Source: Catajapyx aquilonaris
Taxonomy: Eukaryota
Assembly (NCBI GenBank): GCA_000934665.2
Contig: KZ538658.1
Span: 1-56,095 of the forward strand
Direction: 5' to 3'
Length of the DNA: 56,095 nucleotides
Below are positions 11,081 to 39,093 of the stretch, piece after piece (position 1 is the first letter of the stretch; each line of letters begins with the position of its first letter). The notes under the pieces were generated by a model. The model saw nothing but the letters and a program-made list of their open reading frames with translations, did not search any database and was not told the origin of the DNA. The translations under genes and the position numbers were made by a program.

Positions 11081-14000
11081 ATGGAGGCGAGAGGAGAAGA
11101 GCAACGCAAAGAATTTGAACGCATGCTTAAAACGAATTACTTGGAAGACAAGGAATTGGTGAAAGGAGACATATGGTGAGTGTCATTAATACTAACAATA
11201 GCACTTATATCAACAGATGTCATATGTAATCCTGCATTTTTATTTTCAGGTACATGTTGAGCAGTCAGTGGTACCAAAAGTGGTTGTCATATGTGGACAA
11301 TAATGATTCAGGTGCTATTCCGGGGCCAATTGATCATAGCTCCATATTGAAAGGTGTGTCTTGAAACCATTGCAAGCAACTTTCCATTCATTGCTAATTA
11401 ATTGCATTTTGTTTTAAACCAATAATACACTGATATTATTTTGTTATCATAAATTTATTATGGCCCAAAGAGGATGGTTCTGGCGATATTAGAGAAGGAT
11501 TGATACCTGGAAGAGACTATACGCAGATTCCAAGGAAAATGTGGGACTTTTTGATAGTGCGATACAGATTAATTCACGGACAACAACCTATCAAGAGGAA
11601 GGTACAGTGAACTAATATGCCTGTTCATTTTATTTGATAGCACCCGTGATAAGCTGAAGGCTTCCTTGGGTTGTATGTTGCAGTGACTTCATGCCATTAT
11701 TTTATGACTACTTCGTTCCCATTTCTTGCATGATGCATACCCATGACAGGTGATTGAGTTCAAAACAAGTGGGCAAAACCGACTTCAGGTTGAAGTATAT
11801 CCAATCCAGGTTAAGTTGTGCCTTAATGTCCACACATGCACCCCAGTCATTCGCAAGTTTAGCCGAGTTGACACGATTGGCAAGTTCATGCGATCCAGTA
11901 ATGATAACACTGCTTTTGGTGATTTTTTTGGCAATCTTTTCAGCTGTGGCTGAGGAGAAAGGTCGGAAAGAGTTTGGCATTCCACATGACGTAGATACAC
12001 GTGTGTTTTACCGATATGCAAACAGCAGTGTCGAACAATTGGTTCGCAAGGATGTGACTATTCAGGAATTGCAACTGTATCCCACTCCGACTCTTATTAT
12101 TAAGATGAGGAATCCAGATGGAAGTTGGCCAAGGGATGATCCCAATTGGTAGAGGAACTTGCGGAATAATTGCAGTAGTTACTAAAATATTAAATTGCTT
12201 CCTGCGCACAGGAACATGGACATTATGGAACAAAATGCTCAACATGTAAAAGAAGATGAAAATCTCTGCCGTTCTGCACTCGAACTGCGACAATACGTGG
12301 TGAAAATGGAGGCCCGACTGAAAACAAACATAGAGCATCAGTTGGAAGCTGGAATTAACTCAACAATAGCACAGATTAAAAAGCTGGAGTTGCTGAGCAC
12401 TAAAGATGAAAGAGCATACATCGGCATGTGGAAGAAGAGTTTGGCGCAAAATTTGGCAGGTACTATTAGACCTCCAAAGACTGTGCAGGGTATTTACAAA
12501 AATAATACGTACCAGCAAACTTCTAATTTAAATCCCAGGTCACTAGAGTTCGTTTTATAAAGAAGTAGGCCAATAATATTTGGTCACAGCTGCATCTTTG
12601 GCCTGTTGAGGCAATTAGTTTTAATTTTTTAAAGTACAGTAGGTCATGTCCCGCACACAGAGCCTGCTTTAATACTTTAATATGTCTTGGCAACTGGTTA
12701 CAGCTGATGATTGCTTGCAATAAAAAAAAAACCTTCACTATAACATTTATATTACGCTTATATAAATGACAAAGCAAACTTACGGTAAAGGTTTTGTGCC
12801 AGGCTCTATAGGATTCTTCTTTAGCCAACCATTTACTTGACGCTAATTACACTGTTCGACAAGGGTAAATTTTCCCGGGTTATGATATGTGTTTCAATAA
12901 GTATTTTTGCTGCTGATTCCAAATCTGTAATTAGAATAATTGTGCTGGCAGGCACAGTGTTTAAGATATACTGCATTTAGTGCAATAAATGCAGTATATC
13001 TCAAACACTGTGTCTGCCAGCACAGTTCTAAGTGCAGATTTGCAATCAGGGAGATAAGTACTATAATAATCACTATTCACATCTTCGGAAAGAGCAAAAA
13101 GGTTTTTTTTTGTCTGACGGCATATCTGCAAAACATGTCTATTATTTTCTCGCGAATCATGCATGACCCAGGCCTCTAACTTTACATACTGAACCTTATG
13201 TCCGTCACAACTAGAGTCACCAAATATGACTTGATGTAACGCAAATACATCACCGAGGTCACAATAATATTCTTGAGCATGTGAATGAGCAAGTGACCAA
13301 TGAAATGCTATAAATATTTATTTTTACATTTTAGAGGAAAACATTACTAATTCCATAGGCTAATTCCACTAACCGAAAAAATTCTTTAAAAAGGCCTCAT
13401 TTTCAGCCATTTCCAGATTTTTGCAAATTTCTTCCTCGTCATCGTATTTCGCAATATGGCTGAATCTTTATTAGCAGCATTACGGAATAGGTGAGCACAT
13501 CTGTGATTATTTTCACCAAGATCCGAGACGGTCTAGCAACATTTAGGCTCACTTGATTCGGCAAAACCCCTAGTAAACAGTTCCAAATTTCAAAACCATA
13601 TATCTCAGAAACTGTCCCTGACAGAAACCTTTTAAGCAGATATTCGGATTCAGCGCAGAAATTACAATAGGAATCACTATTCACAACTTCAGAAAATAGA
13701 AAAAAGTGTAATTTTGTAGGACAGTGTTATCTCAACTGTAACTATAGGATGGTCCAACCATGTGGAACTTTATGTATAATCCTCACAGCCACTAGTGACC
13801 TGGACTTACGTACATGAGCTTGTTGGTTGAATTAATAAACACCCTGCGTAACTGCTAAAATCAATTAGAAATGTGCAATGTAATTTAATTATGCAATTTG
13901 ACATTTCCCAGAAATGCAAGATCAGTGGACCAAATTACCCAAAATCTTGCTGAAAGAAACGGGATCGCTGCGAGAACATGTATCAGCTGTTGAGAAGAGC

Positions 14001-15686
14001 CACAAGGCAGCGCTGCAGTTGCTCGAGTCCAATGCAAAGTCACAGATTAGGAAAGCCAGAGAATCTGTCTTGAATAAGTTCCAAGAGGTTGCTGACTCAG
14101 ACCTTGAATGCAGCATTTGCAAGGAAATTATTATACAGGTTTTATGGTTTTATTGATTTCTGTGTGTTTTGTATATTAGTGCAACCTTTGAAAACTGGAA
14201 TTTGTTTACTAGAGCCATCACTTTTAAACATTCATCACCAACAATAACTACAGCGACCATAAATATTGTCAATGGCAAATCATTGATGCATTGCATAAAA
14301 TATATACTATGTGGGTTGTTTCATAAGTCATGCCGCGTATTTTTTAAATTCAAAAACGGTAACACATACAGAGATGACCTTTGCTGAGTTTTGAAGCTAC
14401 GGTGATTACAATTTGATCTGGCATATAGATGTCACCCAGATCGCGGTGGAGGCAGGGAAACAATAGGGGATCGTGACTCCCCCACCGCACCATCGCCCTA
14501 AGAATTAAGGCCTGAACCTGACGTGCTTGGAGCTGTTGGACGCTGTATGGTGCAGGACACTCGGAGATGGACAACACTGTAGCTTGCTTTCGAGTGTGGG
14601 ACAAGTCAGAGCACTATGCTGAGGACTCTGCAAGACTGAAAAGTCTCAGGAAGTTGGCATCCTCAATGGTTCCTCACCATCTCTTTGAGGTGCAAAAGTG
14701 CCACCATTTCGCCTTCGCTTGGAACTCGATCGCATTGCTGAGGGTGATGGTTTTTTTCAAATGGTTTGTGGCGATGGATGACACATGCCTCCGGTTATAG
14801 TGCTCGAAAGCAAGCTCCAGTGTTGTCCATCTCCAAGTGTCCTGCATGCAGAGTCCAACAGCTCCAAGCGTGTCAGGCTCGGCCCTTCTTAGGACGATGG
14901 TGCTGTTGGCGGGTCACGATCCCTTTTGTTTCCCTGCCTCCCCCGCGATGTGGGCGACATCTATAAGCCAGATCAAATTGTAATCGCAGGAGCTTCAAAA
15001 CTCAGCAAAGGTCATTTCTGTATACCGTATTTGAATAAAAAAAAATACGCGCCATGACTTATGAAACAACCCAAGAAGGCCTATAATAGGCCTACTTGGG
15101 TTGTTTCATAAGTCATGTCATGGTGTCATTGTTAATAATTAACAATGACACCATGACATGACTAGATTCTAGTGTAATTGGTAAAAATGGGAAGGCCATT
15201 TCAAGGCTAGGGGGATTTCAGTACTGTATTTTATTTGTTAACATTGCGTGCTTTCTTTGCTAAATAATAACAGGTGATAATAACTGGTCTATTCTTCACC
15301 TGCAGGCGGTAACTCTAAACTGTGGTCACTCCTTTTGCGAGTATTGCCTTAATATGTGGAGAGAACGGGCTCCTCAATATGACTGTCCGTTGTGCAGGAA
15401 GCCGGTCGAGACATGTGTCAGATCTGTCATGATTGACAGCTTCATTGAGAATTTTATTGATGCACTTGGTGACAATGAAATTAAGACAAACAGAAACGAT
15501 CTGAGGGCTGCACGTTACAATGCAGGTAAGTGGCATATAGCAATCTTCACATGGCATGCAAGCAATATTTTAAAGGGAAACTTTAAAAACATTTAAAGGT
15601 ACTTAAACCACATAGGCTTACTTTTTGCTTCCTGGTATCAGTATTAAAACATTTTATTTGCAGGCCCAGAGGAAAATGAGAATTAA
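11081..15686 (+). CDS. DUSP-UBL + coiled-coil + RNF8-type RING chimeric E3 ligase, paralog 1 (~460 aa; exons 11081-11175, 11250-11353, 11471-11601, 11750-11879, 11944-12148, 12212-12459 or 12489, 13912-14138, 15306-15525, 15664-15686)
   Basis: Spliced frame is open. USP15-like motifs: KGDIWY, WYQKWLSY, PGPIDH, GQQPIKRK, VEVY, FSRVDTI, NPDGSWPR. RING: DLECSICKEIIIQAVTLNCGHSFCEYCLNMW...CPLCR. Intron 4 uses a GC donor. Confidence 0.85.
12840..13740. mobile_element. Second copy of the unclassified element family at 8860-10770 (intron 6 of paralog 1)
   Basis: Shared sequence blocks with the 9.1-9.4 kb and 10.4-10.77 kb regions. Confidence 0.5.
14312..15073. mobile_element. Foldback MITE with ~270 bp TIRs, inside the RING-splitting intron of paralog 1
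   Basis: tgggttgtttcataagtcatg... at the left and ...catgacttatgaaacaaccca at the right, with arms complementary throughout. A partial TIR copy and small hairpin follow at 15095-15162. Confidence 0.85.
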
Positions 15687-15762
15687 GGATCACTGGATGA
15701 AGCCTAATGAATATTGTTGTGCCATCTACAATTGCATGATAAATGTAATTACATACTTATGC

Positions 15763-15934
15763 ATAGCGTTGGATTTCCCACTAGGCAGAGTAGGCAATTG
15801 CCTAGGGGTGGCCGCAAGCTGGAATATAATTTTTTTAAATAAAATAAAACAAAGGCGGCGACATACTTAGGGATGGGGGGCGGGGATCTCAACTGCCTAA
15901 GGGTGGCCAGGGGGTGGGTGGTAAATCCAGCGCT
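15763..15934. mobile_element. Small TIR element in the 3' region of paralog 1
   Basis: agcgttggatttcccac ... gtaaatccagcgct inverted ends; internal tgcctaggggtggcc repeat. Confidence 0.5.
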
Positions 15935-16316
15935 GTGTATACATAGGATTCCAACTCTACTTTTAAATCATACTTGCTGTATTACTGCTCTATTACTGCT
16001 TAACCATCCTTCCTGGAACGTCAGATAAAGATGGCTTTCGCTTGGCATTTCCTTTTTTAAATTTTTGAGCACGAATACAGACTTTCCATTCGCCCTGCTA
16101 TCCCGTACCATGAACTAGATCAGGAGGTTATTTGATACAGCTACAAAAGAAGAGCAATTTGTAGTATACTAGTCAAAAAACAATGAAAGCCCAAAATACG
16201 AACACCTAATATTGTTTTATTTAATCACAGTGTAACTGTAGCAGGAGAATATATGGCCCTTGTCGCTTAATGTTATAGTGGCATTGGGAATTTCCAAAGC
16301 CTTTATTTGTCTTGCT

Positions 16317-19179
16317 TTATTTAGGATGACCTGAAAATTTTCAGTAGCATTAATGACAAAGATGCACACATTATTATTGTCATAATAATTTATGAATTAC
16401 ACAGAAGTGAATGTTGCACTCAACAATGTAACGTACGATTCTCCCTCTCCTCCACCATGCATTTTCTTCTCTCCTTTTGATCAGAAGGCAGTCGACTGAC
16501 CATATCCTCAATAAGGCCATCTATTACTAGGGAAGATATTGCACTAGTGATCTTTCTTCTGCACAGGGGACATTCGGCACTCTTGGAACGCCACTGTGAC
16601 AAACAGTGGCAGCAGAATGTATGGGAACAGTTGATAGTAGTTGCCTAAATTAAAGGGTAGGAGTCATGATGGGTACACATGTACAGCACCAGGCTGAAAC
16701 ATGAAAATGTCCAAATTGACCTTTACAAATAGCTCACTGCATATGCTACATTGCAAGTGACATTCTATCAAGTTTTCTTCTTGGCTGTGAGAAGACGTCG
16801 CAGAAGCACTTTGGTTGTTGCCATCCAACATGCCACTTTCTGCAACACTTTCATTGTCGAACATCATATCCATATGCATTGCATTGAGCTGTATTTGAAG
16901 ACTATCCAGTTTACACATCAGCCATTCTATATGTTCACTGCTTCCTCCTCTTTCAAGCTCAGCTGTAAGTAATAATCAACAGTGCGCTAATATAGTAGAA
17001 TCATTGGTCACTTTGGCATCAACATAAATGTGGTGAAATCTGTCTACTAGAAAACATGGACACACTGGAAAGTTGTCCCTTACTCAACTTATATTTTGGT
17101 CCCTGGATAGGTTTTTAAAAGCATATACCAGGGTGTAGGCTGTGACTTGGGACATGCTTCTAGGCATCTAGGGTGTGTAGGGGAAGCAATTTGAGATTGG
17201 ACACCCGTAGTCAGAAACTCATCCCTACGGAGTCATCCCATTGTTGTAACAATCCATTATTGTTGTGTTTTCCATTGTGCTCCTTGTTTAGTTGTTATAA
17301 ACAATTTCATCCAAAAATTGAAATATTGTTACAAGAATGGACCTTTGAGGCTTTCTCTCCTTTGTGATGGGTTTCCAACCATGGGTGTCCAATCTCAAAT
17401 TGCTTCTCTAGGCAGCCCCTACACATCCCAGAAGTCTCTCCCAAATTACAGCCTACACCCTGTATAGAGCATGTCGCACAACAGAAATAAACCTGTTCTG
17501 TACATGGAATAATTTCCCTGTAGAGGTTTCTCCGAAAGTACAATCAGCACAAAAATGATAAAATTAATAAACATATTTGAACCCAGATTGTTTTCGTATG
17601 ATTAATTAAATAATGTAATAACTGACTGCATAAAACATAATATTGCCATGTCCTAACCTCAGTCAACCTTACATCATTACATTCAACGCTTTTCGTTGAA
17701 TTCAATTGCAATAGTCTTGACCATCCAATGATACTTTACTTTTCCCTAAAATAGGCATATACCTGTATGACCACATACTCTTCAAACCCACCATTGAGCG
17801 TTTGTTCTAGTTGAAGTTTCTCATTCTCTAACGTGGACATCTTGAGGGCTTCTTCCAGTCCAGTATCTTCAGGCTGATTATGTTGCTGCTTTACCGTTAA
17901 ATTACCATCGCTAATTTGGTTGTTCCTTAAACCGGATGCAGAGGTGGTGCTATCATCCAGTTCATCAATGGGCCAATTTCCATGTTGGTTTTGAGTTTCA
18001 ATGACAACCACGTCACCAGACTCCACGCCTGAGTAATATGCCCAAAAATTATCATCATCTGAATTATATTCACTGAAGTTATCGCAGGAATTTGAATTTT
18101 GTAACTTCCAGATGCGAATCACTACATCAGATGGTATGTTGAAGGTAACTCTTGCCTCGTCCTTAATTTTTCCTGGGAAAATAGTTAACGAATGACTGTG
18201 TGAGTGATCCTATAATGACACGAATGACAAGTCAGACAAAATATATGGAAGACAGTATTTCACTTACTGATGGTGTCTGTCTTACTAAATTCTTTTGAAA
18301 CTCTGAATTCTTCTCTCCCATACAGGCATAGGAAGATCTTCATTAGGTATACCTCTACTTCTCTACAAAGCTTGCCATAGAGTCCTATTTCGATAACCTA
18401 AAAATAATCATATCTAATGTGTTATTAATAGAGCAATCAGTCCATAAAGCCACAAAAAAGATATCGAGGGAATGTCTGGACAATTTACACTTGCTTTTCT
18501 GATAATTGGCGATTCCCCCGCATTCAGGCCATACCATGACACCAATTGATCCCATTGTACTTTTGTCAGTAACTTGTAATGAATGTCCTGTTCCAGATCT
18601 TCCTTCATATCTCCACTTTCTAAAAATGATAAGAGGAATAGAAATGCAAATCATTGGGTCACCGACATTTTTTTATTAATAAAGCCAAACCATATCACAT
18701 GAATGAATGCGATTAGATCTTGAGAATTATTTCTAATGGCATGCAACTGGAAGGTAATTTGAACGTGTAGGGAAGCTAACCTGTGATAATGCTTAAGTTG
18801 CTGACTGGTCCCGGCCTAAGAGACATCCTCACTTGGTCTCCCCGAGAATCCACAGATTCCAAACTGATAAATCGTTTCCACTTGTTCCACCATTCCAAGC
18901 TCAGCACATACCTTTTATAACGAAGTACTGTTGATCATGACTTGACTTCAGCGATAATTACATACGGTATATTCCTCACCATTCCTCTCCAGGAATGAGA
19001 TGAACACATCTCTGCTGATTCCGAAACCATTCTCGTTGATCTGACAGACATAAATCCAAATGTACAGATCCTTGCATCACCCCTGACTGCACTCCTGTTG
19101 CCATTCTAATTTCTAAATGAAGCCCATATCTCACATTATCGCATGAACTCATGAAACCTTTACTCTCTGATACTCGCAT
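16317..19179 (-). CDS. DUSP-UBL + RNF8-type RING chimeric E3, paralog 2 (~450-476 aa; exons 19179 or 19104-18980, 18911-18781, 18619-18495, 18397-18268, 18172-17792, 16962-16721, 16644-16437, 16330-16317)
   Basis: PGEEWYVLSLEWWNKWKRF, PGPVSN, WYGLNAGESPIIRK, EVEVY, FSKTDTI, QHGNWP; HLQCSICSELFVK|ATTINCSHTFCCHCLSQW...CPLCR. Exon phases are all compatible. Without the last micro-exon the stop is at 16420. Confidence 0.82.
17129..17462. mobile_element. MITE in intron 5 of paralog 2
   Basis: cagggtgtaggctgt ... acagcctacaccctg TIRs, plus an internal inverted block gcaatttgagattggacaccc. Confidence 0.8.
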
Positions 19180-19325
19180 CTTATCAATGTTGACACATGC
19201 GTCAAAAGCTGCTAGTGCCAGTGGTTTCCAACCTTATACCAACTGCAACCCCCTAAACATGTTTCCATAAATGTGCGACCCCCCCCCCCCCCNCCCCCAT
19301 TTCTCCCCTCCCCGGGCCTCAGGGT

Positions 19326-19500
19326 GACACGGTGGTGTAGTGGTTAACGCCACAGCCTTCCACCTCTATGGTCCCGAGTTCGATCCCCGCGTCGCGTCGG
19401 ACGGAGGACACTTATGTGGAAGAGTTTCGATTGGTTCTCGCCGTGTTTGCGTGGATTTTCTCGGGGTTCTCCCGTTTCCTCCCACTACCAAAACCCATCA
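19326..19500 (+). mobile_element. tRNA-derived SINE-like fragment
   Basis: ggtggtgtagtggttaa A-box and gagttcgatccc B-box, followed by a SINE-type body (gattttctcggggttctcccgtttcctccca). Confidence 0.6.
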
Positions 19501-20423
19501 CACGAATGCCAGATAGCCTTGCCTTGGCACAACCAACAAACCTTAGTCAGGCAGTTGAGACGGAGGAGGCCAGGCTGTCGTGCACAAAGAGGCACACTTG
19601 TCGAAAATGTCAAAATCACTCTTTTTGGCAACAAGTCGTCATAGGTTTGACAAAAGGACGAATTCAACATTTCCATAATTTTACAGGAGAGCGAAAAGAA
19701 ACCTGCAAACCGCTATACAAATACATAAGATGGCGTTTGGATTTTCCGTTCTAACTCTGACGCCACTAGTCTTGTCCCATGTGCTCGTTGTTTTGTCAGA
19801 ATGTGACCCAACACTCTTGATGGTGCTGGCAGAGGCCATAACTAAATTTTGACAAAAAGTCGAATTCATCATTTTGTCAAATTAACGACATTATTAGGTT
19901 ACTTGTAGCAGTTCAACATAGTAGCTACTAAATGGGCTTTCCAGAAGTAAGCCTATATGTATGAATCTGTTCCAAATCCCCTCCCCCTACCCCAAGGCGA
20001 GGTCACAGGGGCCAGAGTCAGCTAAATTTTCCATTGATGAAAATGTGGGTTAAATTCTGAAACACAGAATGTTTAAAAATCAGGGCTACACATTTTATTT
20101 GCATTCTTCCTATACTCACGTATGACATGCACAGAGAGCAGTACAATATACTAGTGGATTTGACGTGCCATCGCACAAGAGAAGGTACTGAATCAATTTT
20201 ATTGGAATTATCATGATTACGTATCTTTCCTCCACATTACATAACTGTGTAACTGTGGAGAACTGTCAGCTAGCTGTCTAGATTGAATCAGATTTGTCGT
20301 CTTCCTATCCCCTTTTTGTCCACAATAATTTGGATGATATAAAATCAGAGTTCACTGGAATAGGGTATTTTGTCAACATGCTGTATAGGTGGCACTTACA
20401 AATTACCCAAGAGGTCCATTTAA

Positions 20424-23338
20424 TTAATCTTCTTCCCTCTCCATAACAATGCACATTCTCCTATCTTGCTCATCACCCGAAAGATTCTTGACGATGTCCT
20501 CTATGAAACCATCTATTACCCGAGAAGGGTAAGCAACTGTGACTCTTGACCTGCATATAGGGCACTCATCCTTTTTCCGCCGCCAAAGCATGATGCAATG
20601 TCGGCAGAAAGTGTGAGAACAGCTTAGAGTCATTGCCTGAAACACAATTAATGTAATTTAGAACTCAGAACAATTGCAGTGCAGTACAAAAACGGTTTGA
20701 AATGTCATTACATGAATAAAAAGCTCATTGCATATGGTGCACTGCATGTGGGTGTTCACAAAGTCGTGAATTTTTTTCCGAGACAATCCTGAAAGATGAT
20801 GTCTATCTTCCTCAGAAGACCCTTTCTTCTGAGCTTCATTTCCACCAACAAGACAATCCAGCTTTGCTTGAACGCACTCCAATTTAGTCATTAAAATCTC
20901 TAGCGTCTCACCTCTTTTATCTTCCTTTCTCTCGAGTTGATCTGTAGAAGACACAAGATCATTATGAGCCATTACCAAACTCACAATCGTAATGCGAAAT
21001 ACGTATTCTACCAGAAGAATTACAGATATGATTTGTTACCATTAATTTTCTTCGCTATGGTACATCGTACGTGCTCCAATCGAGATATTTCTAGAGTATC
21101 TTTCAAGTCATCACTCTCGGTACTGTTTTCAACTTCCACCTCTTCCTCACTTGGCCAAGTTCCCTCTGGGCTTTTGACTTCCACTGCCACTGTGTCTCCT
21201 AAATGGATACCAACATAGTAGGCCCGCAAACCTTTTGGCAAAAGCTGGTACTTTAAAGGAGAATAAGATATTTGCCACAGGCGTGTCTCTGTGTGTTCTG
21301 GGATACCAAATGATCGCTTTGCTTCCTCTTCGATGAATTCTGGAAGACAGTCAGTATTATAGGAGAGTTCTTATCTATTGTGAAAGATAAGAGCAAATGG
21401 TTGTGACTATTACCAACAGTGTCTGCCTTGCTGAAGTACTTATTTTTTCGGTCATTTAGGTTCCTATACCGGCACAATTTTACTTTTAAGGCATACACTT
21501 CCACTTCAGTCCTGTGTTCACCAAAGTCATTGTCGCAGTAAGCCATGTTAATTACCTGAAATAAAATATTTTGTAGTCGTTTGAGTATATAATATTCTGA
21601 CTATAATTATGAGACCTAATTCCAGACCGCCTGCGACATTTTCACCAATACGACCGTAAATATAACAGATGCTGTAAGTGGCATATATTATATTCCAGTT
21701 ACAGCACTTATGGAACCATACAGTCATAATATGGCCCATGAAGGAGAGTGCAATATACAATAGTTTATCATGCCTTGAGATTAAAACTGTCGTTTGAACA
21801 ATGCAATGTAACGGGGTTCAATGGAGTGTTCCCATTATATGAAGCTTTCCAAAAATAACTTAATATTATGCAATAAACCTACTATACCTTCCTAAGGAGG
21901 GGTTGCTCTCCTTCCTTTACACCATACCAATGCACCATTAATTTCCATTGTGACTTGGATATGACCTTAAAGTCCACATCCTGCCTCAATCCTTCCTTAA
22001 GGTCACCATCCTCTGTGGGAGAAAGTATTGGTTATTAAAATACCAATACACAAAATTTACGTAAAATATATGACGAAGTTAACAATGATGCTGTGGAATG
22101 TTAATGAATAATATAATAGTGATATAATTTTACATACAACTTACATATAACTTACCAACATAGTATACCTACATGTAAATTTATTCTTTTACATAATGAC
22201 TATAAGAGAATTGGCTGCAAGAATACTGACCTGTGACAATATCATTATTGCTGACTGGTCCTGGTCCAATAATCCATTTCATGCAATCCAGCATACTGCC
22301 GGAAATATCCAAGCTTATATATTGCTCCCATTTTTTCCACCACTTATTGCTCATTACACACCTGAAATATTGGCAAAAAGTGAATTGAGCCCATGTCACA
22401 TTGTGTCACTCGAGGTACTAAAATACTGTGCGAATTAATTGGGACAACATAAGAACTTTTGTTTTATTTGGTTTTTCTAGATACAATATTCGCGGCTGAC
22501 GGAAGTGACTCCTTGCAAACTGCTCAGGAATGTGACCTTGACCATGCAGGACATATTTGTGATAATTTACTCGTAGTTTATCTGTGGTTTATATGTGGTA
22601 GTTTCATCTTCCTCCTGGCAGATACAACTAAATTCCGAACGAGTGTTAGACACCTGTGTAGATCTACGTGCATAGTTGTCTAGTATAGTGTTGAAAAACT
22701 GAGATTTCATGTAAGAATCGTGCTAAAATTTTAGCCCTTAAAGAAAGCACTTCAATGAGTGTTCGTGATATTTCGGCAGCCACAAGGGTAAGCAAATCTA
22801 GTGTTTCCAGTTTAATGAAAGTCTACAATGAAAGTGGACCAATACCAGCAAAACGAAGGGAGAGATGTGGACAAATCCGTAAAACAACACCAAGAACAAA
22901 AAAGTGGTCATGTCAAAATATACTAAAAATCTTGTAATACAATCATGCATCAAAGGCATGTAATAAATGCGTAAAATTAGGAAATCGAAAGTTGTCCCAA
23001 TTAATACGCACAGTAGGCTACTATACTAAAATAACACAAATAAATGCTAATAAAAATTACATTGCCAATGTCTGTGAACTGTAGATATAACATATCCTTA
23101 AAATCTGCCTGAAGCGTGTGGATGTAGCCAGTGTATTTTGATGTGTGACCTAACTAAGCAGTAGTTAGGGTATGTGCTTATCTGCTTATCACAAAAATTG
23201 CAAAGCTACAACATTTTGGCTAGTTCAATTAAAATTGTCAACAAGGTAATATTCTCACCATTCGTCTCCTGGAAGAAGCTTCCCACGGGCTTGATGAATC
23301 AATTCTTTTTGCGTTCCTAATCCTGTTCCTTCTGCCAT
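20424..23338 (-). CDS. DUSP-UBL + RNF8-type RING chimeric E3, paralog 3 (~406 aa; exons 23338-23259, 22361-22231, 22012-21888, 21555-21414, 21339-21040, 20941-20712, 20636-20424)
   Basis: Starts MAEGTGLGTQKELI...PGDEW (USP15 begins MAEGG...GDTW). WWKKWEQY, PGPVSN, WYGVKEGEQPLLRK, EVEVY, FSKADTV, FGIPEHTETRLW, PEGTWP; HMQCTICNELFIH|AMTLSCSHTFCRHCIMLW...CPICR. All GT-AG, phases consistent. Confidence 0.88.
22424..23015 (+). mobile_element. Deleted Tc1-like element in intron 1 of paralog 3
   Basis: TIRs tactgtgcgaattaattgggacaac / gttgtcccaattaatacgcacagta. Internal HTH remnant MSVRDISAATRVSKSSVS...CGQIRKTTPR. Confidence 0.8.

Positions 23339-25062: not shown

Positions 25063-25066
<4 letters not shown>
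23989..25066 (+). mobile_element. Helitron/DINE-like non-autonomous element containing a SINE (family B, ~24518-24790)
   Basis: 5' actagcagg-ttacccggcgttgcccgggt hairpin; 3' aaacatccaaactcacaaact...ttatttatagat. Internal gggttcgatccc head is shared with 46905-47241. Confidence 0.55.

Positions 25067-25067
<1 letters not shown>

Positions 25068-25139
<72 letters not shown>
25068..25139. repeat. (AT)n microsatellite
   Basis: Perfect AT dinucleotide run of about 70 bp. Confidence 0.98.
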
Positions 25140-25140
<1 letters not shown>

Positions 25141-30348: not shown

Positions 30349-30656
30349 TATATTCAACCACCTAGTCACCTGGATATGGCACCCGGATAGGGGCGCAACC
30401 AGCTACACAAAACGAACTACTTCGGGCTATATGAGCAATAACAACTATACAATGACCCTGATACTTGGAACAATCTGTATACTGTATACATTATGTTCCC
30501 AGGTATATCAGTGATATCTAGACATGCCTTCTTCGACAAGTGATAGTGCCTTTATTAAAACACCTATACAAATGAGAAAAGAACACACACGTTACTACTG
30601 AATTTCAAAGCTACTACATATTTCAAAAATTCTTTTACTTATAAATAGGATTACGC

Positions 30657-33600
30657 CTACTGCTCTCCTGGCATTTCATTCTGGGAACGTCTCTCACGAT
30701 CCATTTCAGTACTGCTGGTATTGGATGATCTTGAAGATGTATTATCCTGTCTGCAATATTCTGCAAACATACAAATATTATTATTTTTACTATTATCATT
30801 ATATTTAATCTTTCAAACAACAATACAATTCAACAAGTAGTGAGCCCATACCTGCATTCCTGTCATTGATAATAGTGTCCCTCCTTTGCTTCACTTCTGA
30901 GGAAAGCTTCTCCATGACCTTATCTACAAAGCTGTCTAATGCAATGGACCGTGCCTGAATAGTGATCTTATTCCTGCATATAGGACACTCACTGGATTGC
31001 TTTCCCTTACTCCACTCATCCAAGCAGAATTTGCAAAACATGTGACTGCAGTTTAATGTGACTGACTGGATAAATATTTCATTGCAAATGCTGCATTGGA
31101 GCTCAGATTCCAGTAGGTTCTCAAACTCATGGAGTACCATTTGCCTTGTAGCTATTGCAGACAACTTCACCCTCTCTAAGATTTCCTGCCTTTCATTTTC
31201 AATCAGCTTCACCTCAGCCTGCATCTGATCTGATTTGTCCAGAAGGTGTGCAATTTTCTCCATGTGCTCTTCTGTTACTTGGTCTTTATTCAGCTCAGCT
31301 GTTGAATAAATCAAATGATGTGTGTCAAGCTTTATTACTATTTTTATAGATATTACCCTCAAGCTGCATCTCCACTTCCTCCATTTTTTGTTTCAAAAGC
31401 GACAGTCTGATTTTTAATTCTTGGTCTTCTGCTGGGAATATGTCAGGTTCAGTTACAGTACTGGGCATGGGTGGACTATCAGTTTCGACAAACTGGGCCA
31501 ACCCTTCAGCATCATTTACTTGCAGTGTGCTGCTTTCCTCTTTTATAACAACAACAGTTGAGTCCTTAGTTAATGACGAAGTAAGGAGTGTGGTGTATTT
31601 ACGAAGGCGAGTACTATTGGAGTCATTCATACAAATTCGTGTGACCATTTGATCTGATATATTAAATGCCTTGCGTGCTTCCCTGTCGACACTCTCTGCA
31701 AATCATAGAGGCTGTATGTTAAAAATATGACATTGGGACTACTTATGAACAAGTATAGTAAAATAAAAAGCCATAAATTATTTTTGTTGAATAGCACAAC
31801 ACTTGCCAAGACTATCAGTGAAGCTGAAGTTTCGAATTATTAAGTTGTCGAAATCTGGGAAAACACATATCCTGAGCTGCAAGGGGTAGACTTCCACTTC
31901 CAATTGGTCCAAAAGAGCATCCTTGTGACGCACTACCTGCTCAACATATTCAGATCATACTAAAACCTGATGAATATGACAATGCAACTTGCCTTCCTCC
32001 TGATAGGTTGCTGATGTTCCACAGCACCATACCACATCACCAGCAATGTCCATGCATCTTCATGAATCAGAATGAAGTCCTGTTCATTACACAAGTCCTT
32101 CTTCAGTTCCGCAACTCCGTCTACTCAGAGGCAAAGCCAATATAATAACAACCACTAGGCACAAGAGTAACTTCAAGTAATTATGTAGGCTGCTGAGGAC
32201 AGGAAAAAACCTAACAAGCTAAGTTTGCAGTAAATTTCAAGTAGGCCTATCTCTACATTAATTGGTTCCATCCAAGGAATCAGTTCAGAAATCTGCTGTA
32301 AGCATGTCATTAACCCTCAAGGTAATTCAAGCATATATCACATCAGTGTCCTTTATAAAAGATGGATTTATTATTAAAACTTTGATGCTATTGGTCAGGT
32401 TTTAAAATCCTGACAGCAGCCCAACCAGAAGAATTAATAATTGTTTTTGTAGCCAGTCTAACCTGCAAGAATGTTGGCGTTGTCAATTGGCCCAGGACGA
32501 CCTTTGTTACTTCTTCTTAGGTGAAACAGGTCTGCAAAGTAGCTCTTACCCCTGCTTCTGTTCAAGCCAGCATATGCTTTCCAATGCTTGAACCACACGA
32601 AGTCTAACACATACCTTTAATAAGGCCAATTGTCAATGTACAGTCGCCGACATATTGATTGAATCACTTGCGAGCCGATTTCTAACGTTATCCTGGATAT
32701 TCAGAGCAATACCGCACAACATCTTGCGAAATCCAGTCAGGCGACGCGTCGCCTCACTGGATTTCGCAAGATGTTGTACGGTATTGCTCTGAATATCCAG
32801 GATAACGTTAGAAATCGGCTCGCAAGTGATTCAATCAATATGTCGGCGACTGTACTGTACCATATGCAATTCACCCTTTAGCATGGTGCATTAATAAATA
32901 GCATACCATTCAACCACTGTAAGTAAAAAGGCAGTAGCTGCCATTATATCCAAGGGGTTTACCTCTCACCTGTAAAGTGTACACTGGAGTACCAAATTCA
33001 TGGAGTACCAAGGAGTAAGGTACCTAAGGAGTACCTGGGAGTACCACTCGCAGGAGGTGTACACTGGAGTACCGAAGTGGTTATCCCCTTGATTATATCA
33101 CCTTTGAAATAAGTGTAGTAATATTGCATAAGCACATGGAAGTTAGTGCACTTCTGCATGAAAGCAATAATTATTATAGGCTACTACTGCCTCTTTAAAA
33201 AATTCCAATGGGACATAAGTACTCGTATTATGAGTTGAGGCTATGGGAGGAAAAAACTGTTCTCAGCCATTCACAGAAACTAAATAGAATCTTGATTTAG
33301 CCAAAGCCCAGAACACATTTCTTTCTATGGGTTGGAACAGAAGTCATGGTATGTACAGTGCACCCCACTTATTTGGACCACATCAGGGCCACAGCATTTG
33401 GCCCAATAAAGCGGGGGTTCGATTAACCGGGGTTCATGTGAAACAACAGGAAAAAAACACAAAAAATTAGACTGCACTACCAGCTTTAATCCTCAAAAAT
33501 CGACAGGTGAAGGTAAAATAATTGTATAAAAGTGACTGTGTCATGCAAATGTCATGGAAGTGCAAAGTACTGTACGACTGTACAGTAATGTTAGTGCTCA

Positions 33601-36370
33601 CTCCGCTGTAAAAATTGTCTAGTAACACCTGCTCGGGTTCTTGTTTTTGACTTCATGTTAACAAAGTCCGCACAGGTGTCGAGTGCAGTCACAGGACCAT
33701 CGTCATTCCCTACTTGCATAAAAAATCGCCTGAAAACAGCCACAGTATTCCGTGCTTCTGTAGCTGTCCCTGGAATGGGCGCAGGTGTTTCATTCTCCTC
33801 ACTTTCTTGGTCATCCTCCTCCTTTTAGTACTTGGCCGCCACTTGATCAATAATGGCATGTTCCGTCCCAGATGCACTACTGTAAATGACTTAGGAATGG
33901 TCCCTTAATCATAATAAGCCCTACAGGCGTTATGTGCAGTACAGTAGTATAGCATTATAGCAACCAAACTGGTCTGACTAACCGGGGAAATCACCAGCTA
34001 TGCGGGGAAAAATTACATTGATGGTATTGATTCGATTCTGGTCCTGGCGATTCGGTCCAAAAATGCGGGGGGCCTGATAAACTGGGGTACCAATTAAGCG
34101 GGGCGCACTGTTTTTTTCTTTTTTTCTTTTTTGAACACCTAACCCTTTGCAGCGATGAACCACTACATTACTTTGGATGGCTCTCAGAATTATGTATTTG
34201 TTGTGATAAAAAGAATATGCAAAGGAAGGAGAGATTGTCAGAAACAAAAGAAGAATGACACTCCCCCATCACCCTAAATAATGGGACACAAAGGATCCCA
34301 ACATCAAATTGCTCTCAATCATTGATTGTATCTCAATGCAGGCTGATGCAGCTATAAAGATTGTGCCCAGTGATGTGCTTTATTTCAAATAAATCCATTT
34401 GAAATGGAAATGCAAAATGCAAAATGGGTATCTTCCATTTTGCATTTTAAATGCATTTTGTGGAGCCCCATTTCCATTTTAAATGGGCTTTTAATGCATT
34501 TTTCATTTTAAATGCATTTTTGAAATTCAGCATTGAAAAAATTATATTGACCTTTGGAGTGCTGTGAATAATTTTGTGCTTTTTCACCCATGGATTCTAT
34601 CCATCATCAACTCCTATCCCCCCCAGCCCCTACATAGCCTACATAGCATTAAGTTGTGTAATTGAGTAATATAAACACATGTAATTCTAAACTTTTGTAC
34701 ACAGAAATCACATCTCGCACTGGTTTAATACATTATTGAGATCTATGTTATTCTCCTGTAGGATATGTAATGACCTAAGGTGGGTATGAGGTCCAGTTAG
34801 GTCAGACTCAGTCTGTTAAGCTTATAGGTTGTGTTGTAAGGAAATTTACTATTTTCTTGTGCTTCTTATGTCTTATCTTTATGTAGGTGGCAAAAAAGGT
34901 TAAACAACTTTGTAAATTTATTTATATGACAATAGAGGAATGAGTTGTAATTGACAAATATGGAAAATCCGCAGCGTTTTCGGCGTTTGAGTCTAACAGA
35001 GGTTGGACAAAATAATAGGGACACCTGCTAAAGGAGGTTGAACGTACCGTGTCTGTTTTATTCAAAAACGGGAACTTGAAAAGTTGCAGATATGACATTT
35101 ACTGAGTTTTGAAGCTCTGTCGATGTATATTTGTCTGGGTATGCAGATTTTACAAAAGTCACACGAGGAGGGGGGTAACAAAATTCGAATGACATCTCCC
35201 GGCTGCAATTTTCGACCAGTGTCCCTCCCTTTTCATTTGCAAATGAACGGAGTTACAGATTTTTACTTTTCTGGGTACTGATGTTCAATTTATGTAACTG
35301 TGTGGCGTGGGTTGGATAATGGAAACCCATGTTACAGTTAGTCGTATGTGTACACTACAATTTCTTAATTACTATGGTGTTTGCCTACAATACAGCCCAA
35401 ATCCTTCTTCCAGTGGACACATTCAAGTTTTGAAGTCTGTAGCTGCCTCAGATTTAGTGCTGGGGAGTGCTATTTCTCTTGACTCCCCACCCTCTCTCGT
35501 ATCTTTTTGGGCCATCTGTATACCATACAAAGTGACATCGATAGAGCTTAAAAACACAGTAATGTTCATGTATGTAACTCTCCTCATTTTCAAATGAATA
35601 GGGTGGGACACTGGTCGAAAATTGTGGCTGCATGAGGAGGTGTGTTCGACTTTCGTTTCCCCCCTCATCTCGTCATTTATCTGCATACCTTGTCAAATCA
35701 TCGACAGGCTTCAAAACTCAATAAAATATATTTGTCTTTGTAACATTTCCACTTTTCGAATAAAGTCGACAAGAACTTTCAACCGCTTTTTGCAAGTATC
35801 CCTATTATTTTGTCCAACTCCAGCACATAAATATCGATTAATGACTCAAAAAAATCTTTACATAATTATGATTAGCCTATTTGTCACTATTTCTCGTGGC
35901 ACCCCTGGTGATTGCTCGCGGAACCCCGGTTGAGAAACGCTGCCGGAGTAAATGGTCTGGGGCCCCATCACATCGGGTGCAAACGCATTGCATGTGCAAA
36001 TGGTCAATGCAAAATCATGTGGGCACTACTACTGGAGGTACCAATCATTCTGGCAAGGCCATCGATGGTTATGCGGTGATCTTTGAAAGCTTACTACGCA
36101 CCCTTGCTGAATGCCTTGTACCATCGGAATGTTGTGGGACACATCTTCACCATCTCTTAGCATGTCATACGCCATCGCTGTTATCTTCAAATGGCAGCGA
36201 AACCTCGACAGTGAGGCAGAGCGGAGGCGAATATGAACCTAGGTCTACTTCCAGTGTCATCTTTGCCCGAGATCGTGGCATATTCGAACAAGAATTGGTG
36301 TTCTAATACTTATATCTATTCTGGACATGTTGCCATTCACAGCAAGGCTTGAACGAATCTATTTTTTAAA

Positions 36371-36426
<56 letters not shown>

Positions 36427-39093
36427 GCTTTACCCCATTAGAGGGAACAGAGCCCTTTTAGGGGGGTGGATTACAACCGTTTTTCGTTACGAAATTTCTT
36501 CGCATTTTTTTCTCTCCGGTGCAGGGGTCAGGATAGGGCAGTGGTTTCCAACCTGGGGGTCGCAGGCAGAGTCGCGAGCCTTTGTTAAACATTTTTTTTT
36601 GAAATTTCTGTGCAAATTGAACCATTTTTGCGGCCGTAAGAGTGTATGTTTTCTGGAAATGGGGCAGTTGTAGAAGGGGCTGGGGGGNNNNNNNNNNNNN
36701 NNNNNNNNNNNNNNNNNNNNNNNNNNNNNNNNNNNNNNNNNNNNNNNNNNNNNNNNNNNNNNNNNNNNNNNNNNNNNNNNNNGGGGGGGGGGGGATACGG
36801 GTACCAGTGCTGCGATGTCTCAAATTGGGGGTCGTATCCAGTCCCCCAGCGGACCAAGCTACAAGACCCCCCACCGACACCGCACCTCCTCATGGATGGG
36901 ACAATAAGGATAGGAAAGGAAGGAATTGGCTGGGGCCTATTATTTAGGAAGCAACCCCAGAATTCTCCTGGGTGGACTGTGGGAAACCACAGAAAACCAC
37001 GGTTAGGATTGCCGGCCCCAGGGCTCGAACCCAGGACCTCCCAATTAGCAGTCGGACGCCTTATCCACTCCACCAAACTGCTTCGGTTGGCTTGAACTAA
37101 TTCTATTTATCACACAAAAAATCAGCCTCAATTTGTTTTGACTGGCCCTCATAGTCCTCACAAATAAAGTATCACTGTATGTGCACTGTTCCACTTACAC
37201 ATTTGCCGTTTCACCAAAACCTGGGGTGGGTGATTTCACCTTAAAATATTAATTTTTGCCATTTTCTGAAAGTGGGTTAATGTGCCCTTTCTCCCTAATG
37301 CCGACGATATGTACTGTACCTTATACATTCATACTGGCATCTCTGGGGCACAAAATAATGTCTGTCATGTGTCAACTGAGTGAGAGAATGAGCCTTGGTG
37401 GGCAGGTTCAAGTTATCACAAGCTGCAATTTTAAGTAACCAGTTTATTCCATTAATTCCATAGATTTTGGGAATATCGGATTTTCCCCCCGCTAATTCCA
37501 GAACTACATACGTAGGTCTGGGGTCGCCTGAGGGGCAGTTGTCCATTTTATTTTCCTTATTTGATCCAAAAAGGGAGGGGACCATGTTACCCATGGCATT
37601 TTGTTGCAACAAATTCCTTTCACACATGCAAGCAAAATAATACAGGATTCTTAACTGTAAGAAGACAAAATGAATAAAACCTTGGAAAAAGGGGACTTAT
37701 GAAGCTCCCTGAACTTTTCTCAATAAGTTATTAACATTAAATAAAATGATAACATATTCTATACATTCATGCAACCAAGTAGCCCTTGTACTTGAGAAAA
37801 AAAATGCTCATAATGTACAGTAAAACCTTGATATAATGCTCTCCTGCATTTAGCGCCCCTTTTTCCGGTCCCTTGATCATTCATTCCCATAAGGTAAATT
37901 TTCCCGCATATAACGCTATCCCGTTTATAACGCTACTTTTGGCCGGTTCCTTGAAGAGTGTTATATCCTCCTCAGACCGGAGAAGAATTTTTAACGCAGT
38001 GTCAATTCCTATTGCATTTTCTGAACATTTTCCCATTAAGAAACGATAAAAATTTTTAGTTTCAAAATATAGACAAAAATAGTGACAAACAACCAATGAG
38101 AACATTAGGATCCAATTGGTGCTACAAAAGCAGAATGGATGAAAGCTGAAAATTTAAATACCGCTTAATGGATCACTAACATAGTGCTCTATCCTCAAAA
38201 CAATGTTTTTTAAATTCATTTGTGGAATTCGTGGTAGCAATTCCTCTCAGAAGACAATTAAAGATAAATGAAATTATTTTTGAACGCCACCACTCCAGGG
38301 ATGGGGCTTGCTCCTTCCCTTCTTACCCGCTAGAGTGGTACCTTGCTATTCTAGATTTCAAAACTGAACAGCATAGTGCAAAGCACACTTCCTTATGGGT
38401 GTATAGGTACAGGCACTTAAAGAAAAGTCACAGCCCATTCAGCTAAAAATGCCATTTTGCGGATGTCCATTTAAATGAGCATTTGGTCTCAGGAAGAAAA
38501 GAAAATGACGCAACAAAGATTGTCACAGAAACATCTTTTCGTATTTCCTAAGACACATTCCTTGCAAATCCTAGGACATTCACTGCATTGCGAAAATCAC
38601 ACTCTAAATATGAGTAAAAAAATAAAACTGATCAGATGAGCGCCTAGCTTCAGCAGCGTCATCCGCCATTTTTATCCGCGATTTAATTTTCGCGGCCCAA
38701 GTCAGATATTCAACACTAGGTGGCTACACCTATTGAGGCGAGATTGTAATCATAGGATACCAACAGATTACAGTTCTGTTGGCATCACTAGTTGGTGCCA
38801 AAAAAATCTTTTGCTGGTGTCGACATATGTCGACACCAGGTCTCAGGAGGATATCGAGGTTTTCCTGTATTATGGGACATACTTAGTAAGTAGTTACTTG
38901 TTTCTCCAAGTGTCACATCTTGAAATGTACCAGTTATGAAGAGATGTGCTTCATAATAACACAAATCCTGATAAGATCATCTAAAGCATTCTCACCAGTG
39001 GTCTCCTTCTACCAGTGTTTTCTTCAGCAATCGGCTGATGAGATCTTTTTGAAGTGAGATGAACTGAGCATCAAACTTAGTATTTTCTGCCAT
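30657..39093 (-). CDS. DUSP-UBL + coiled-coil + RNF8-type RING chimeric E3, paralog 4 (~465 aa; exons 39093-38996, 32614-32463, 32120-31993, 31936-31807, 31695-31357, 31298-30852, 30760-30657)
   Basis: MAENTKFD...LLKKTLVEGDHW|YVLDFVWFKHWKAY...PGPIDN, WYGAVEHQQPIRRK, EVEVYP; ESELQCSICNEIFIQSVTLNCSHMFCKFCLDEW...CPICR...LSSEVKQRR (RNF8 has LSSEVKERR). Introns 3 and 4 have GC donors. The 6.4 kb intron 1 spans an assembly gap. Confidence 0.82.
32638..32855. mobile_element. Loopless 218 bp palindrome (TA-flanked hairpin MITE)
   Basis: ta|cagtcgccgacatattg...ggcgacgcgtcgcc...caatatgtcggcgactg|ta, only about two mismatches. Confidence 0.92.
33355..34111. mobile_element. pogo/Tigger-like non-autonomous element
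   Basis: cagtgcaccccactta ... taagcggggcgcactg ends, with subterminal taaccgggg repeats. Confidence 0.6.
34997..35823. mobile_element. Tc1-like MITE with long imperfect TIRs
   Basis: gttggacaaaataataggga ... tccctattattttgtccaac, with inner inverted blocks (aattttcgaccagtgtccc). Confidence 0.7.
35960..36200 (-). mobile_element. Mariner transposase N-terminal remnant
   Basis: Minus-strand fragments FRWYKAFSKG and DHRITIDGLARMIGTSSSSAHMILH resemble the mariner HTH region. Confidence 0.55.
36372..37089 (-). mobile_element. SINE family A (long variant) spanning the assembly gap, with (TAT)n at 36372-36425
   Basis: tRNA-like head at ~37010-37089 (gggttcgagccc on minus); body shared with the 5.3 and 47.5 kb copies. 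Confidence 0.7.
36688..36781. other. Assembly gap (N run) flanked by poly-G
   Basis: Run of n characters. Confidence 0.99.

What the first reader, a model, noticed from the sequence alone, without database searches (positions are those of the whole stretch)
11081..39093. Tandem family of chimeric deubiquitinase-head / ubiquitin-ligase-tail genes (DUSP-UBL fused to RNF8-type RING)
Seen: four genes (11081-15686 +; 19179-16317, 23338-20424, 39093-30657 -) each splice into an open 400-480 aa frame of DUSP, UBL, a variable linker/coiled coil and a C3HC4 RING. The first four introns have the same positions and phases (2,1,0,1) in all copies. Established: DUSP-UBL is the N-terminal interaction module of USP4/USP11/USP15 (in USP4/USP15 it binds SART3) and is normally followed by a USP protease domain; RNF8 is FHA + coiled coil + RING. 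Here the protease and the FHA are both absent. Inference: an exon-shuffled E3 family using a deubiquitinase's address label to add ubiquitin, possibly opposing or competing with USP15-type enzymes. I do not know this architecture from any described family.
Basis: partly seen in the sequence, partly recalled or inferred. Interest (0 to 1): 0.93.

Follow-up and report, generated by a model that had tools for sequence, protein, structure and literature searches.

The report
Deubiquitinase head fused to RNF8 RING
Four neighbouring animal genes each join the DUSP-UBL module otherwise known from ubiquitin-removing enzymes (USP4/11/15) to the coiled coil and RING finger of the ubiquitin-adding enzyme RNF8, and one copy is seen as a single spliced transcript.

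Summary
I rebuilt all four genes. Each splices through GT/GC-AG introns into an open frame of 476, 477, 406 or 446 aa, with introns of phase 2,1,0,1 at the same aligned positions.

- **Head:** it matches only USP4/USP11/USP15 DUSP-UBL structures.
- **Tail:** it matches human RNF8 coiled coil plus RING at 99.5 bits, against 54 bits for the next family. All eight zinc ligands are kept.
- **Missing domains:** no FHA or USP protease exon turned up.
- **Transcript:** a 1448-nt intron-less contig in run X5 joins gene 2's UBL, coiled-coil and RING exons. Depth arithmetic shows it also covers the DUSP exons.
- **Elsewhere:** none of the 150 nearest RING relatives among 1.84 billion representatives has a DUSP-UBL head. 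71 of the 103 scanned carry FHA.
- **Literature:** a 2014 paper states that DUSP occurs exclusively in USPs.
- **SART3:**

Verdict: a real, probably undescribed domain-shuffled RING E3 family. E3 activity and partners are untested, and absence from other genomes is not shown.

The parts
11081..12148 (+). g1 head: exons 1-5 (11081-11175, 11250-11353, 11471-11601, 11750-11879, 11944-12148) encoding DUSP and the USP4/15-type UBL
   Evidence: Pfam DUSP on exons 2 and 3, Ubiquitin_3 on exons 4/5. Splice sites and phases 2,1,0,1. Intron 4 has a GC donor.
12212..15596 (+). g1 tail: exons 6-8 (12212-12459, 13912-14138, 15306-15596) encoding the helical linker/coiled coil and a C3HC4 RING split by a phase-0 intron; stop at 15594-15596
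   Evidence: Pfam RING families on the last exon. All 9 invariant RING columns kept. X5 contigs lie on 12211-12426 and 15395-15667.
17792..19179 (-). g2 head: exons 1-5 (19179-18980, 18911-18781, 18619-18495, 18397-18268, 18172-17792) encoding DUSP, UBL and an acidic linker; the likely true start is the second ATG at 19104
   Evidence: Model. Ubiquitin_3 on exon 5. The listed pieces of the X5 contig include 17792-18171, and bin depths fit exons 2-5 exactly.
16301..16962 (-). g2 tail: exons 6-7 (16962-16721, 16644-16420) encoding coiled coil and RING, plus 3' UTR to about 16301 with AATAAA at 16321 and 16307
   Evidence: X5 record 12 lies on 16301-16643 and 16720-16962 with 0 other letters. Poly(A) signals. 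RING Pfam hits.
21040..23338 (-). g3 head: exons 1-5 (23338-23259, 22361-22231, 22012-21888, 21555-21414, 21339-21040) encoding DUSP and UBL
   Evidence: Model. Ubiquitin_3 on exon 5. Alignments A3-A6.
20424..20941 (-). g3 tail: exons 6-7 (20941-20712, 20636-20424) encoding coiled coil and RING
   Evidence: Pfam RING families. RING columns kept.
31357..39093 (-). g4 head: exons 1-5 (39093-38996, 32614-32463, 32120-31993, 31936-31807, 31695-31357) encoding DUSP, UBL and linker; intron 1 is 6.4 kb and holds an assembly gap
   Evidence: tblastn with the other copies. Splice sites read from sequence. Model open. Introns 3 and 4 have GC donors.
30805..31298 (-). g4 tail: a single last exon encoding coiled coil plus an undivided RING and a C-terminal helix
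   Evidence: 99.5 bits, E 2.1e-27 to human RNF8 chains 4orh/4whv/4ayc. Best database relatives are FHA+RING proteins. Long N-terminal helix in the single-sequence model.
44760..49806 (-). Fifth RNF8-like gene (partial): coiled-coil exon within 49806-49441 and RING exon 44996-44760, with the same phase-0 RING intron; head not found inside the window
   Evidence: tblastn hits. All RING columns kept. No FHA, DUSP or UBL exon found at 49.8-56.1 kb.

Best explanation
This is a tandem family of at least four intron-bearing animal genes. Each encodes a dimeric RNF8-type RING ubiquitin ligase in which RNF8's N-terminal FHA phospho-reader is replaced by the DUSP-UBL module of the USP4/USP15/USP11 deubiquitinase lineage.

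**Shown**
- The exon structure and the open frames.
- The identity of both halves.
- The absence of a protease exon and of an FHA exon.
- An intact set of RING zinc ligands and near-invariant E2-side residues.
- One spliced transcript-like contig (g2) running from the DUSP exons to the RING exon.

**Inferred**
- One exon-shuffling event joined the exons for DUSP-UBL to the coiled-coil/RING exons of an RNF8-like gene. Vertebrate USP4/15 encode that module before their linker exon 7. An RNF8-like gene still lies next to the array.
- The fused gene was then duplicated as a whole and the copies diverged to 31-50% identity.
- The tail works as in RNF8: coiled-coil dimerisation, E2~ubiquitin recruitment and ubiquitin transfer.
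- The head supplies the target or partner. That partner is not SART3 through the canonical hairpin.
- Partner candidates are whatever the DUSP-UBL surface binds in this organism. They include the catalytic-domain insert of the organism's own USP4/15-type enzyme, which human USP4's DUSP-UBL binds in trans.
For: - **Models:** 4 of 4 are open over 6-8 exons, and 24 of 24 introns have GT/GC-AG ends with shared phases.
- **Head identity:**
  - The DUSP half-exon profile matches USP11/4/15 at 53-49 bits; the next hit is at 16.6 bits.
  - The UBL exon profile matches USP4/15 at 57-53 bits.
  - The linker plus UBL N-terminal exon profile matches USP15 at 43.6, USP4 at 40 and USP11 at 15.5 bits.
  - The VEVY motif is invariant in 4 of 4 copies. 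It holds USP4's DUSP/UBL interface residues E134 and Y136 (PMC4243247).
- **Tail identity:**
  - RNF8 scores 99.5 bits against 53.9 for the next family.
  - 71 of the 103 best RING relatives scanned carry FHA.
  - 9 of 9 invariant and 10-12 of 13 near-invariant RNF8-family columns are kept in each copy.
- **Transcript:**
  - X5 record 12 (1448 nt, 0 mismatches) lies on 16301-16643, 16720-16962 and 17792-18171.
  - Its depth of 16.7 times exon bases per bin reproduces the observed bin depths: 13.8 expected vs 13.8 observed, 11.27 vs 11.2, and 8.54 vs 8.52. The contig therefore also covers exons 4, 3, 2 and 95 nt of exon 1.
- **Congruent head and tail:** g2-g3 is the closest pair in both, and the g2+g3 tails are sisters with SH-aLRT 94.
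- **Trans action of DUSP-UBL:** binding and activation of the USP4 catalytic domain in trans are described in PMC4243247 (passages).
Against: - No enzymatic or binding data exist.
- Only g2 has a contig spanning head and tail. g1 has two short contigs.
- X5 is not on record as RNA, so a processed retrocopy of g2 elsewhere in the genome is not formally excluded.
- The copies are very divergent (31-42% identity in the head). Part of the head's ancestral function may be lost; the SART3 hairpin is not conserved.
- The tail tree does not resolve whether the window's tails form one clade.
- The whole genome is not held. The canonical RNF8 and USP4/15 orthologues, and the true family size, are unknown.
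Confidence: 0.65

Rival explanations
1. The proteins are made but are not ligases. They would act as non-catalytic regulators: the head titrates DUSP-UBL partners or activates/inhibits a USP4/15-type enzyme in trans, or the tail heterodimerises with genuine RNF8 through the coiled coil and poisons or retargets it.
For: DUSP-UBL added in trans binds and activates the USP4 catalytic domain (PMC4243247). RNF8 is a coiled-coil dimer in the solved structures that the tail matches. An RNF8-like gene sits next to the array.
Against: All zinc ligands are conserved in 4 of 4 copies despite 34-50% tail identity. So are the near-invariant Ile in CxIC, the Trp, the Pro, and the Arg after the last Cys. A mere dimerisation handle would not need them.
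Confidence: 0.15
2. A decaying or neutrally drifting lineage-specific gene array: transcribed at low level but without a selected function.
For: Divergence between copies is high. Repeats and transposon fragments fill the introns and spacers. Contig depth in X5 is low, and no contig was seen for g3.
Against: At 31-50% identity, four frames of 406-477 codons over 24 introns remain open with intact splice sites. The motifs that define DUSP (W..W, PGP), the DUSP/UBL interface (VEVY) and the RING are all kept. This pattern is expected under purifying selection, not decay.
Confidence: 0.12
3. Gene-model artefact: separate small DUSP-UBL genes and separate coiled-coil/RING genes lie side by side and were joined wrongly.
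For: The models were built by hand from sequence. No annotated protein of this genome was found in the databases.
Against: One contig joins g2's exons across the supposed boundary. The same order, strand and compatible phases recur four times. No stop codon or poly(A) signal is needed or used between the halves.
Confidence: 0.03

Closest known systems
RNF8 (FHA - coiled coil - C3HC4 RING E3 ligase)
   Same: - The last 125 residues of g4 align end to end with the human RNF8 coiled-coil/RING construct (4orh, 4whv, 4ayc) at 99.5 bits.
- The nearest proteins in 1.84 billion representatives are mostly FHA+RING proteins, 71 of the 103 scanned.
- All zinc ligands are kept, and so are the family's near-invariant residues, including those of the helix after the RING.
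   Different: No FHA domain. The N-terminal half is DUSP-UBL instead. No FHA exon was found in the window with 100+ RNF8-type heads as tblastn queries. The linker/coiled coil is shorter (88-136 aa).
USP4 / USP15 / USP11 N-terminal DUSP-UBL module
   Same: - DUSP (PF06337) is followed directly by the Ubiquitin_3-type UBL (PF14836).
- The only solved structures matched are USP4/11/15 DUSP-UBL.
- The linker is USP4/15-like in length, not USP11-like.
- The VEVY interface motif is kept.
- The DUSP C-terminal half ending QP.xRK lies in the third exon here. The same peptide lies in mouse Usp4 exon 3 (primer given in PMC4624187).
   Different: - No USP catalytic domain follows. The g2 transcript contig goes straight from the UBL exon to the coiled-coil and RING exons.
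- No UCH hit appeared in 137 other ORFs of 75 aa or more.
- The SART3-binding hairpin residues are not conserved (0 of 4 copies have the Phe-Val pair).
CHFR and other FHA-RING or RING-coiled-coil E3s (e.g. TRIM)
   Same: A modular RING E3 with a separate recognition domain and a coiled coil.
   Different: TRIM21/TRIM5/TRIM25 RINGs score only 28-40 bits against 99.5 for RNF8. Domain order (recognition module N-terminal, RING C-terminal) follows RNF8, not TRIM. CHFR was not among the listed matches; the comparison with it is from recall.

Membership tests
RNF8 family | N-terminal FHA domain that reads phospho-threonine | tested here: not met
   The heads are DUSP-UBL. tblastn with the first 170 aa of the RNF8-type representatives longer than 300 aa found no FHA exon anywhere in the window. 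No FHA Pfam hit in 137 other ORFs.
RNF8 family | C-terminal coiled coil plus C3HC4 RING with RNF8-specific flanking helices | tested here: met
   g4 tail vs RNF8 chains 4orh/4ayc: 99.5/98.5 bits, E about 1e-27, alignment over residues 24-148. The next family scores 53.9 bits. 9 of 9 invariant columns are kept in all copies.
RNF8 family | Ubiquitin-ligase activity with UBE2N (Ubc13) or UBE2D-type E2s | not testable with these tools
   Only residue conservation could be checked. That the Ile of CxIC is the E2-contact residue is recalled, not from a call.
USP4/USP11/USP15 deubiquitinases | DUSP domain followed by Ubiquitin_3-type UBL | tested here: met
   Pfam on exon translations. Exon profiles hit only USP4/11/15 DUSP-UBL chains in the PDB.
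USP4/USP11/USP15 deubiquitinases | USP (UCH) catalytic domain with Cys and His boxes | tested here: not met
   The g2 contig joins the UBL exon directly to the coiled-coil and RING exons. The models end in a RING. No UCH hit in 137 other ORFs of 75 aa or more at E <= 1e-4; shorter exons would be missed by that scan.
USP4/USP15 SART3-binding subgroup | Linker beta-hairpin G(L/M)FVKH with Phe127, Val128, His130 | tested here: not met
   Determinants from PMC4914101 (passages). The aligned window residues lack the Phe-Val pair in 4 of 4 copies. g2 is the nearest, sharing 4 of the 7 positions of GLFVKHC.
RING-type E3 ligases in general | Eight zinc ligands in C3HC4 spacing | tested here: met
   Pfam zf-C3HC4 and related families. 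All Cys/His columns present in g1-g4 and in the fifth gene.

The most novel reading that the evidence does not exclude
These are the first DUSP-domain proteins outside the deubiquitinases. They would be natural 'anti-USP15' ligases whose DUSP-UBL head docks in trans on the catalytic-domain insert of the organism's own USP4/15-type enzyme, as the isolated USP4 module does in vitro. That would build an E3-DUB pair, or mark the DUB and its bound substrates with ubiquitin. It would also show that DUSP-UBL is an autonomous, portable interaction module and not a USP-specific regulatory appendage.
Probability: 0.2. Interest if true: 0.8.

Novelty: new variant of a known kind. Interest (0 to 1): 0.6.

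Why it matters
The function of the DUSP domain is still poorly defined, and the literature treats it as exclusive to USPs (PMC4243247). Here evolution has moved DUSP-UBL onto a ligase and kept it in four diverged copies. That gives a direct way to ask what the module binds on its own. It also gives an example of a ubiquitin 'eraser' targeting module reused by a 'writer'. It further shows that RNF8's coiled-coil/RING cassette can be re-aimed by swapping its reader domain. The practical reach is limited until the family's taxonomic spread and activity are known.

Tried and rejected
- **Own genome:** not held. Family size and the canonical RNF8 and USP15 genes could not be sought.
- **Word-index searches with head exon alignments:** A3 and A4, longer proteins, gave no hit at E <= 1 among 357 and 7977 candidates. 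This is weak evidence, because even USP11/USP4-type proteins were not retrieved.
- **The listing of cluster members:** switched off, so the taxa and names of the RING relatives are unknown except P0002 (a crinoid protein).
- **ESM Atlas** (after two unanswered tries, 48 and 54): only USP-type UBL clusters (scores up to 0.82) and plain RING clusters appeared. No DUSP+RING cluster. These are leads only.
- **Pfam on all 150 relatives:** I scanned the 103 that fitted under the residue limit (mostly the best-ranked) instead. The 47 left out were covered only by my phmmer check.
- **Tail phylogeny** (152 rows, 92 columns): unresolved apart from g2+g3. It neither shows nor excludes a single origin of the window's tails.
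- **Sequencing runs:** no RNA holder listed.
- **Complex prediction** for a tail homodimer: the queue was full at every try. Never run.
- **Single-sequence AlphaFold model of the g4 tail:** mean pLDDT 64, with the RING below 50. It shows only the long N-terminal helix and was not used for a fold search.
- **Literature searches** for DUSP with RING/E3/RNF8: no description of the architecture. I saw listings and abstract starts only, and subscription journals are not covered.
- **dN/dS:** considered and dropped. The copies are too diverged (synonymous sites saturated).

Full report
**What is there**

The window is eukaryotic DNA of about 40% G+C with short introns, repeats and five N gaps.

I rebuilt the four genes by scoring donor/acceptor pairs that keep the frames open. 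I read the junctions from the sequence and located the two small DUSP exons of the fourth gene by tblastn with the other copies.

All four models are open: 476, 477, 406 and 446 aa. Of the 24 introns, 20 have GT-AG and 4 have GC-AG ends.

When the proteins are aligned, the first four introns fall in the same columns with phases 2, 1, 0, 1 in every copy. Further shared features:
- A phase-1 intron precedes the coiled-coil exon in g2-g4. g1 has one nearby, plus an extra 63-nt phase-2 intron.
- A phase-0 intron splits the RING in g1-g3 and in a fifth gene, but not in g4.

For g2 the second ATG (19104) aligns better with the other copies' starts.

**Identity of the two halves**

Only unbroken window sequence may be sent to the search tools, so I tested the domains exon by exon.

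Pfam found:
- DUSP in g1 exons 2 and 3;
- Ubiquitin_3 in the UBL exons of g1, g2 and g3;
- C3HC4-type RING families in the last exons of g1, g2 and g3.

Profiles built from the four copies of each head exon matched only the DUSP-UBL structures of USP11, USP4 and USP15 in the Protein Data Bank:
- 53-49 bits for the DUSP half;
- 57-53 bits for the UBL exon;
- 43.6 (USP15), 40 (USP4) and 15.5 (USP11) bits for the linker plus UBL N-terminal exon.

The single last exon of g4 (163 aa) matched the human RNF8 coiled-coil/RING constructs at 99.5 bits, E 2e-27, over residues 24-148. The next family (RING2/BMI1) scored 53.9 bits and TRIM RINGs 28-40 bits.

Against the alignment of RNF8-type relatives, all nine invariant columns (eight zinc ligands and one Pro) are kept in every copy. 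So are 10-12 of the 13 nearly invariant columns.

**What is absent**
- tblastn with the N-terminal 170 residues of the RNF8-type representatives longer than 300 aa found no FHA exon anywhere in the window. The four heads found no further DUSP or UBL exon outside the four genes.
- A Pfam scan of the 137 other frames of 75 aa or more found no UCH and no FHA. It found only two transposase-type HTH hits and a sub-threshold MATH hit.

**Transcript evidence**

Five public runs hold the DNA. None is on record as RNA.

Laid on 11000-30999, run X5 (kind unknown) gave a 1448-nt contig:
- It lies, with no mismatch, on 16301-16643, 16720-16962 and 17792-18171.
- These are the 3' UTR plus RING exon, the coiled-coil exon and the UBL/linker exon of g2. 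The two introns are removed where I had placed them, give or take one ambiguous base.
- Only three pieces of the contig were listed. But its depth (16.7) times the exon bases of my model in each bin reproduces the reported bin depths: 13.80 vs 13.8, 11.27 vs 11.2, 8.54 vs 8.52.
- The exon lengths add up to the contig length if it ends 95 nt into exon 1. The contig therefore runs from the DUSP exons to the RING exon.
- It ends 20 nt after an AATAAA.

Two short X5 contigs lie on g1. One breaks from the genome at 12211/12212, my acceptor for exon 6.

The DNA run X1 covers the genes at about 30-fold with introns in place. Because X5 is not labelled as RNA, a processed retrocopy elsewhere is a formal alternative.

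**Relatives elsewhere**

The g4 tail found three FHA+RING proteins in the word-indexed database at 43-44% identity, one of them from a crinoid. A full HMMER pass over 1.84 billion representatives found 5994 proteins at E <= 0.001 and 670 at E <= 1e-10.

Of the best 150:
- None, nor either of the two extra proteins, was hit by any of my four spliced heads with phmmer at E <= 10 (0 of 152).
- Of the 103 I could scan with Pfam, 71 carry FHA. No DUSP, Ubiquitin_3 or UCH is among the 25 of 29 families listed.

Searches starting from the head failed technically, and the Atlas gave no DUSP+RING cluster. The architecture was therefore not found elsewhere, but its absence is not shown.

In the literature I found no description (listings only). 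Clerici et al. 2014 state that DUSP domains 'are found exclusively in USPs' (PMC4243247, passage).

**Origin**

Pairwise identities are 31-42% in the head, 22-32% in the linker and 34-50% in the tail. g2 and g3 are the closest pair in both head and tail, and they are sisters in the tail tree (SH-aLRT 94). This congruence fits one fusion followed by duplication of the whole gene.

The fusion point lies in the intron after the UBL exon. In vertebrate USP4/15 the next exon (exon 7) encodes the flexible linker after DUSP-UBL (PMC5343593, passages). The peptide QQPIVR lies in the third exon of mouse Usp4 (primer in PMC4624187), as its counterpart does here. These two points suggest that the head's introns were inherited from a USP4/15-type gene. 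I could not compare intron positions directly.

A fifth RNF8-like coiled-coil/RING gene with the same RING intron lies 5.7 kb beyond g4 on the same strand. Its head is not in the window.

**How it probably works**

The tail has everything the RNF8 cassette needs at sequence level. Its N-terminal 60 residues fold as one long helix even in a poor single-sequence model. By homology I infer a coiled-coil dimer that recruits E2~ubiquitin. The head should supply specificity.

- SART3 binding by USP4/15 depends on the linker hairpin GLFVKH/GMFVKH, with F127, V128 and H130. USP11, which lacks it, does not bind (PMC4914101).
- The aligned residues here lack the Phe-Val pair in all four copies.

The VEVY motif, with the DUSP/UBL interface residues E134 and Y136 of USP4, is invariant. 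The two domains are therefore probably still held in the USP4-like arrangement.

The isolated USP4 DUSP-UBL binds and activates the USP4 catalytic domain in trans through its insert. Docking on the organism's own USP4/15-type enzyme is therefore a concrete alternative partner. It is speculation.

**Verdict**

This is a new variant of known kinds: an RNF8-type RING E3 with a deubiquitinase's DUSP-UBL module in place of the FHA domain. It is expressed for at least one copy. E3 activity, partners and taxonomic spread remain open.

Noticed in passing
window 44760-49806 (-): A fifth RNF8-like gene. One exon encodes a helical stretch ending in the first RING Cys pair (within 49806-49441). A RING exon follows (44996-44760), split by the same phase-0 intron as g1-g3. 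No FHA, DUSP or UBL exon was found upstream within the window, so its head is absent or lies beyond 56095.
   Followed up: partly
window 11880, 18494, 31992, 31806 (donor sites): 4 of the 24 introns in the four genes use GC-AG instead of GT-AG, three of them with the donor context G|GCAAGT. From recall, about 1% of animal introns are GC-AG, so this share looks high. The g2 case lies inside the stretch covered by the X5 contig by depth arithmetic only.
   Followed up: partly
window 27054-27287 (-): An open frame between g3 and g4 has a sub-threshold MATH_2 hit (E 2.1e-5, 25.2 bits against a cut-off of 32). It may be an exon or a relic of a MATH/TRAF-like gene.
   Followed up: no
window 22695-22934 (+), 55701-56048 (+): Transposase-type helix-turn-helix frames: HTH_23 inside intron 1 of g3, and the HTH_48 of Mos1-type transposases near the window's end.
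   Followed up: no
window about 5311-5610, 36585-37106, 47451-47826, 48159-48499, 51937-52266: A short interspersed repeat recurs on both strands. It is recognisable in translation by a shared peptide pattern in the ORF lists. DNA run X1 reaches depths of thousands at several repeats in 13-30 kb.
   Followed up: no
window 29502-29763 and 29934-30189: Two nearly identical segments in inverted orientation give the same peptides on opposite strands. This is probably a foldback or inverted-repeat element between g3 and g4.
   Followed up: no
window 15596-16420: g1 (+) and g2 (-) converge. Their stop codons are about 820 bp apart and their apparent 3' ends (15667 and 16301 in X5 contigs) about 630 bp apart. 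g2-g5 all lie on the minus strand, so g1 is an inverted member of the array.
   Followed up: no
window 42084-42140: A 12-nt tandem repeat of 4.8 copies lies inside a G+C-rich stretch that translates to Pro/Trp- or Gly-rich repeats.
   Followed up: no
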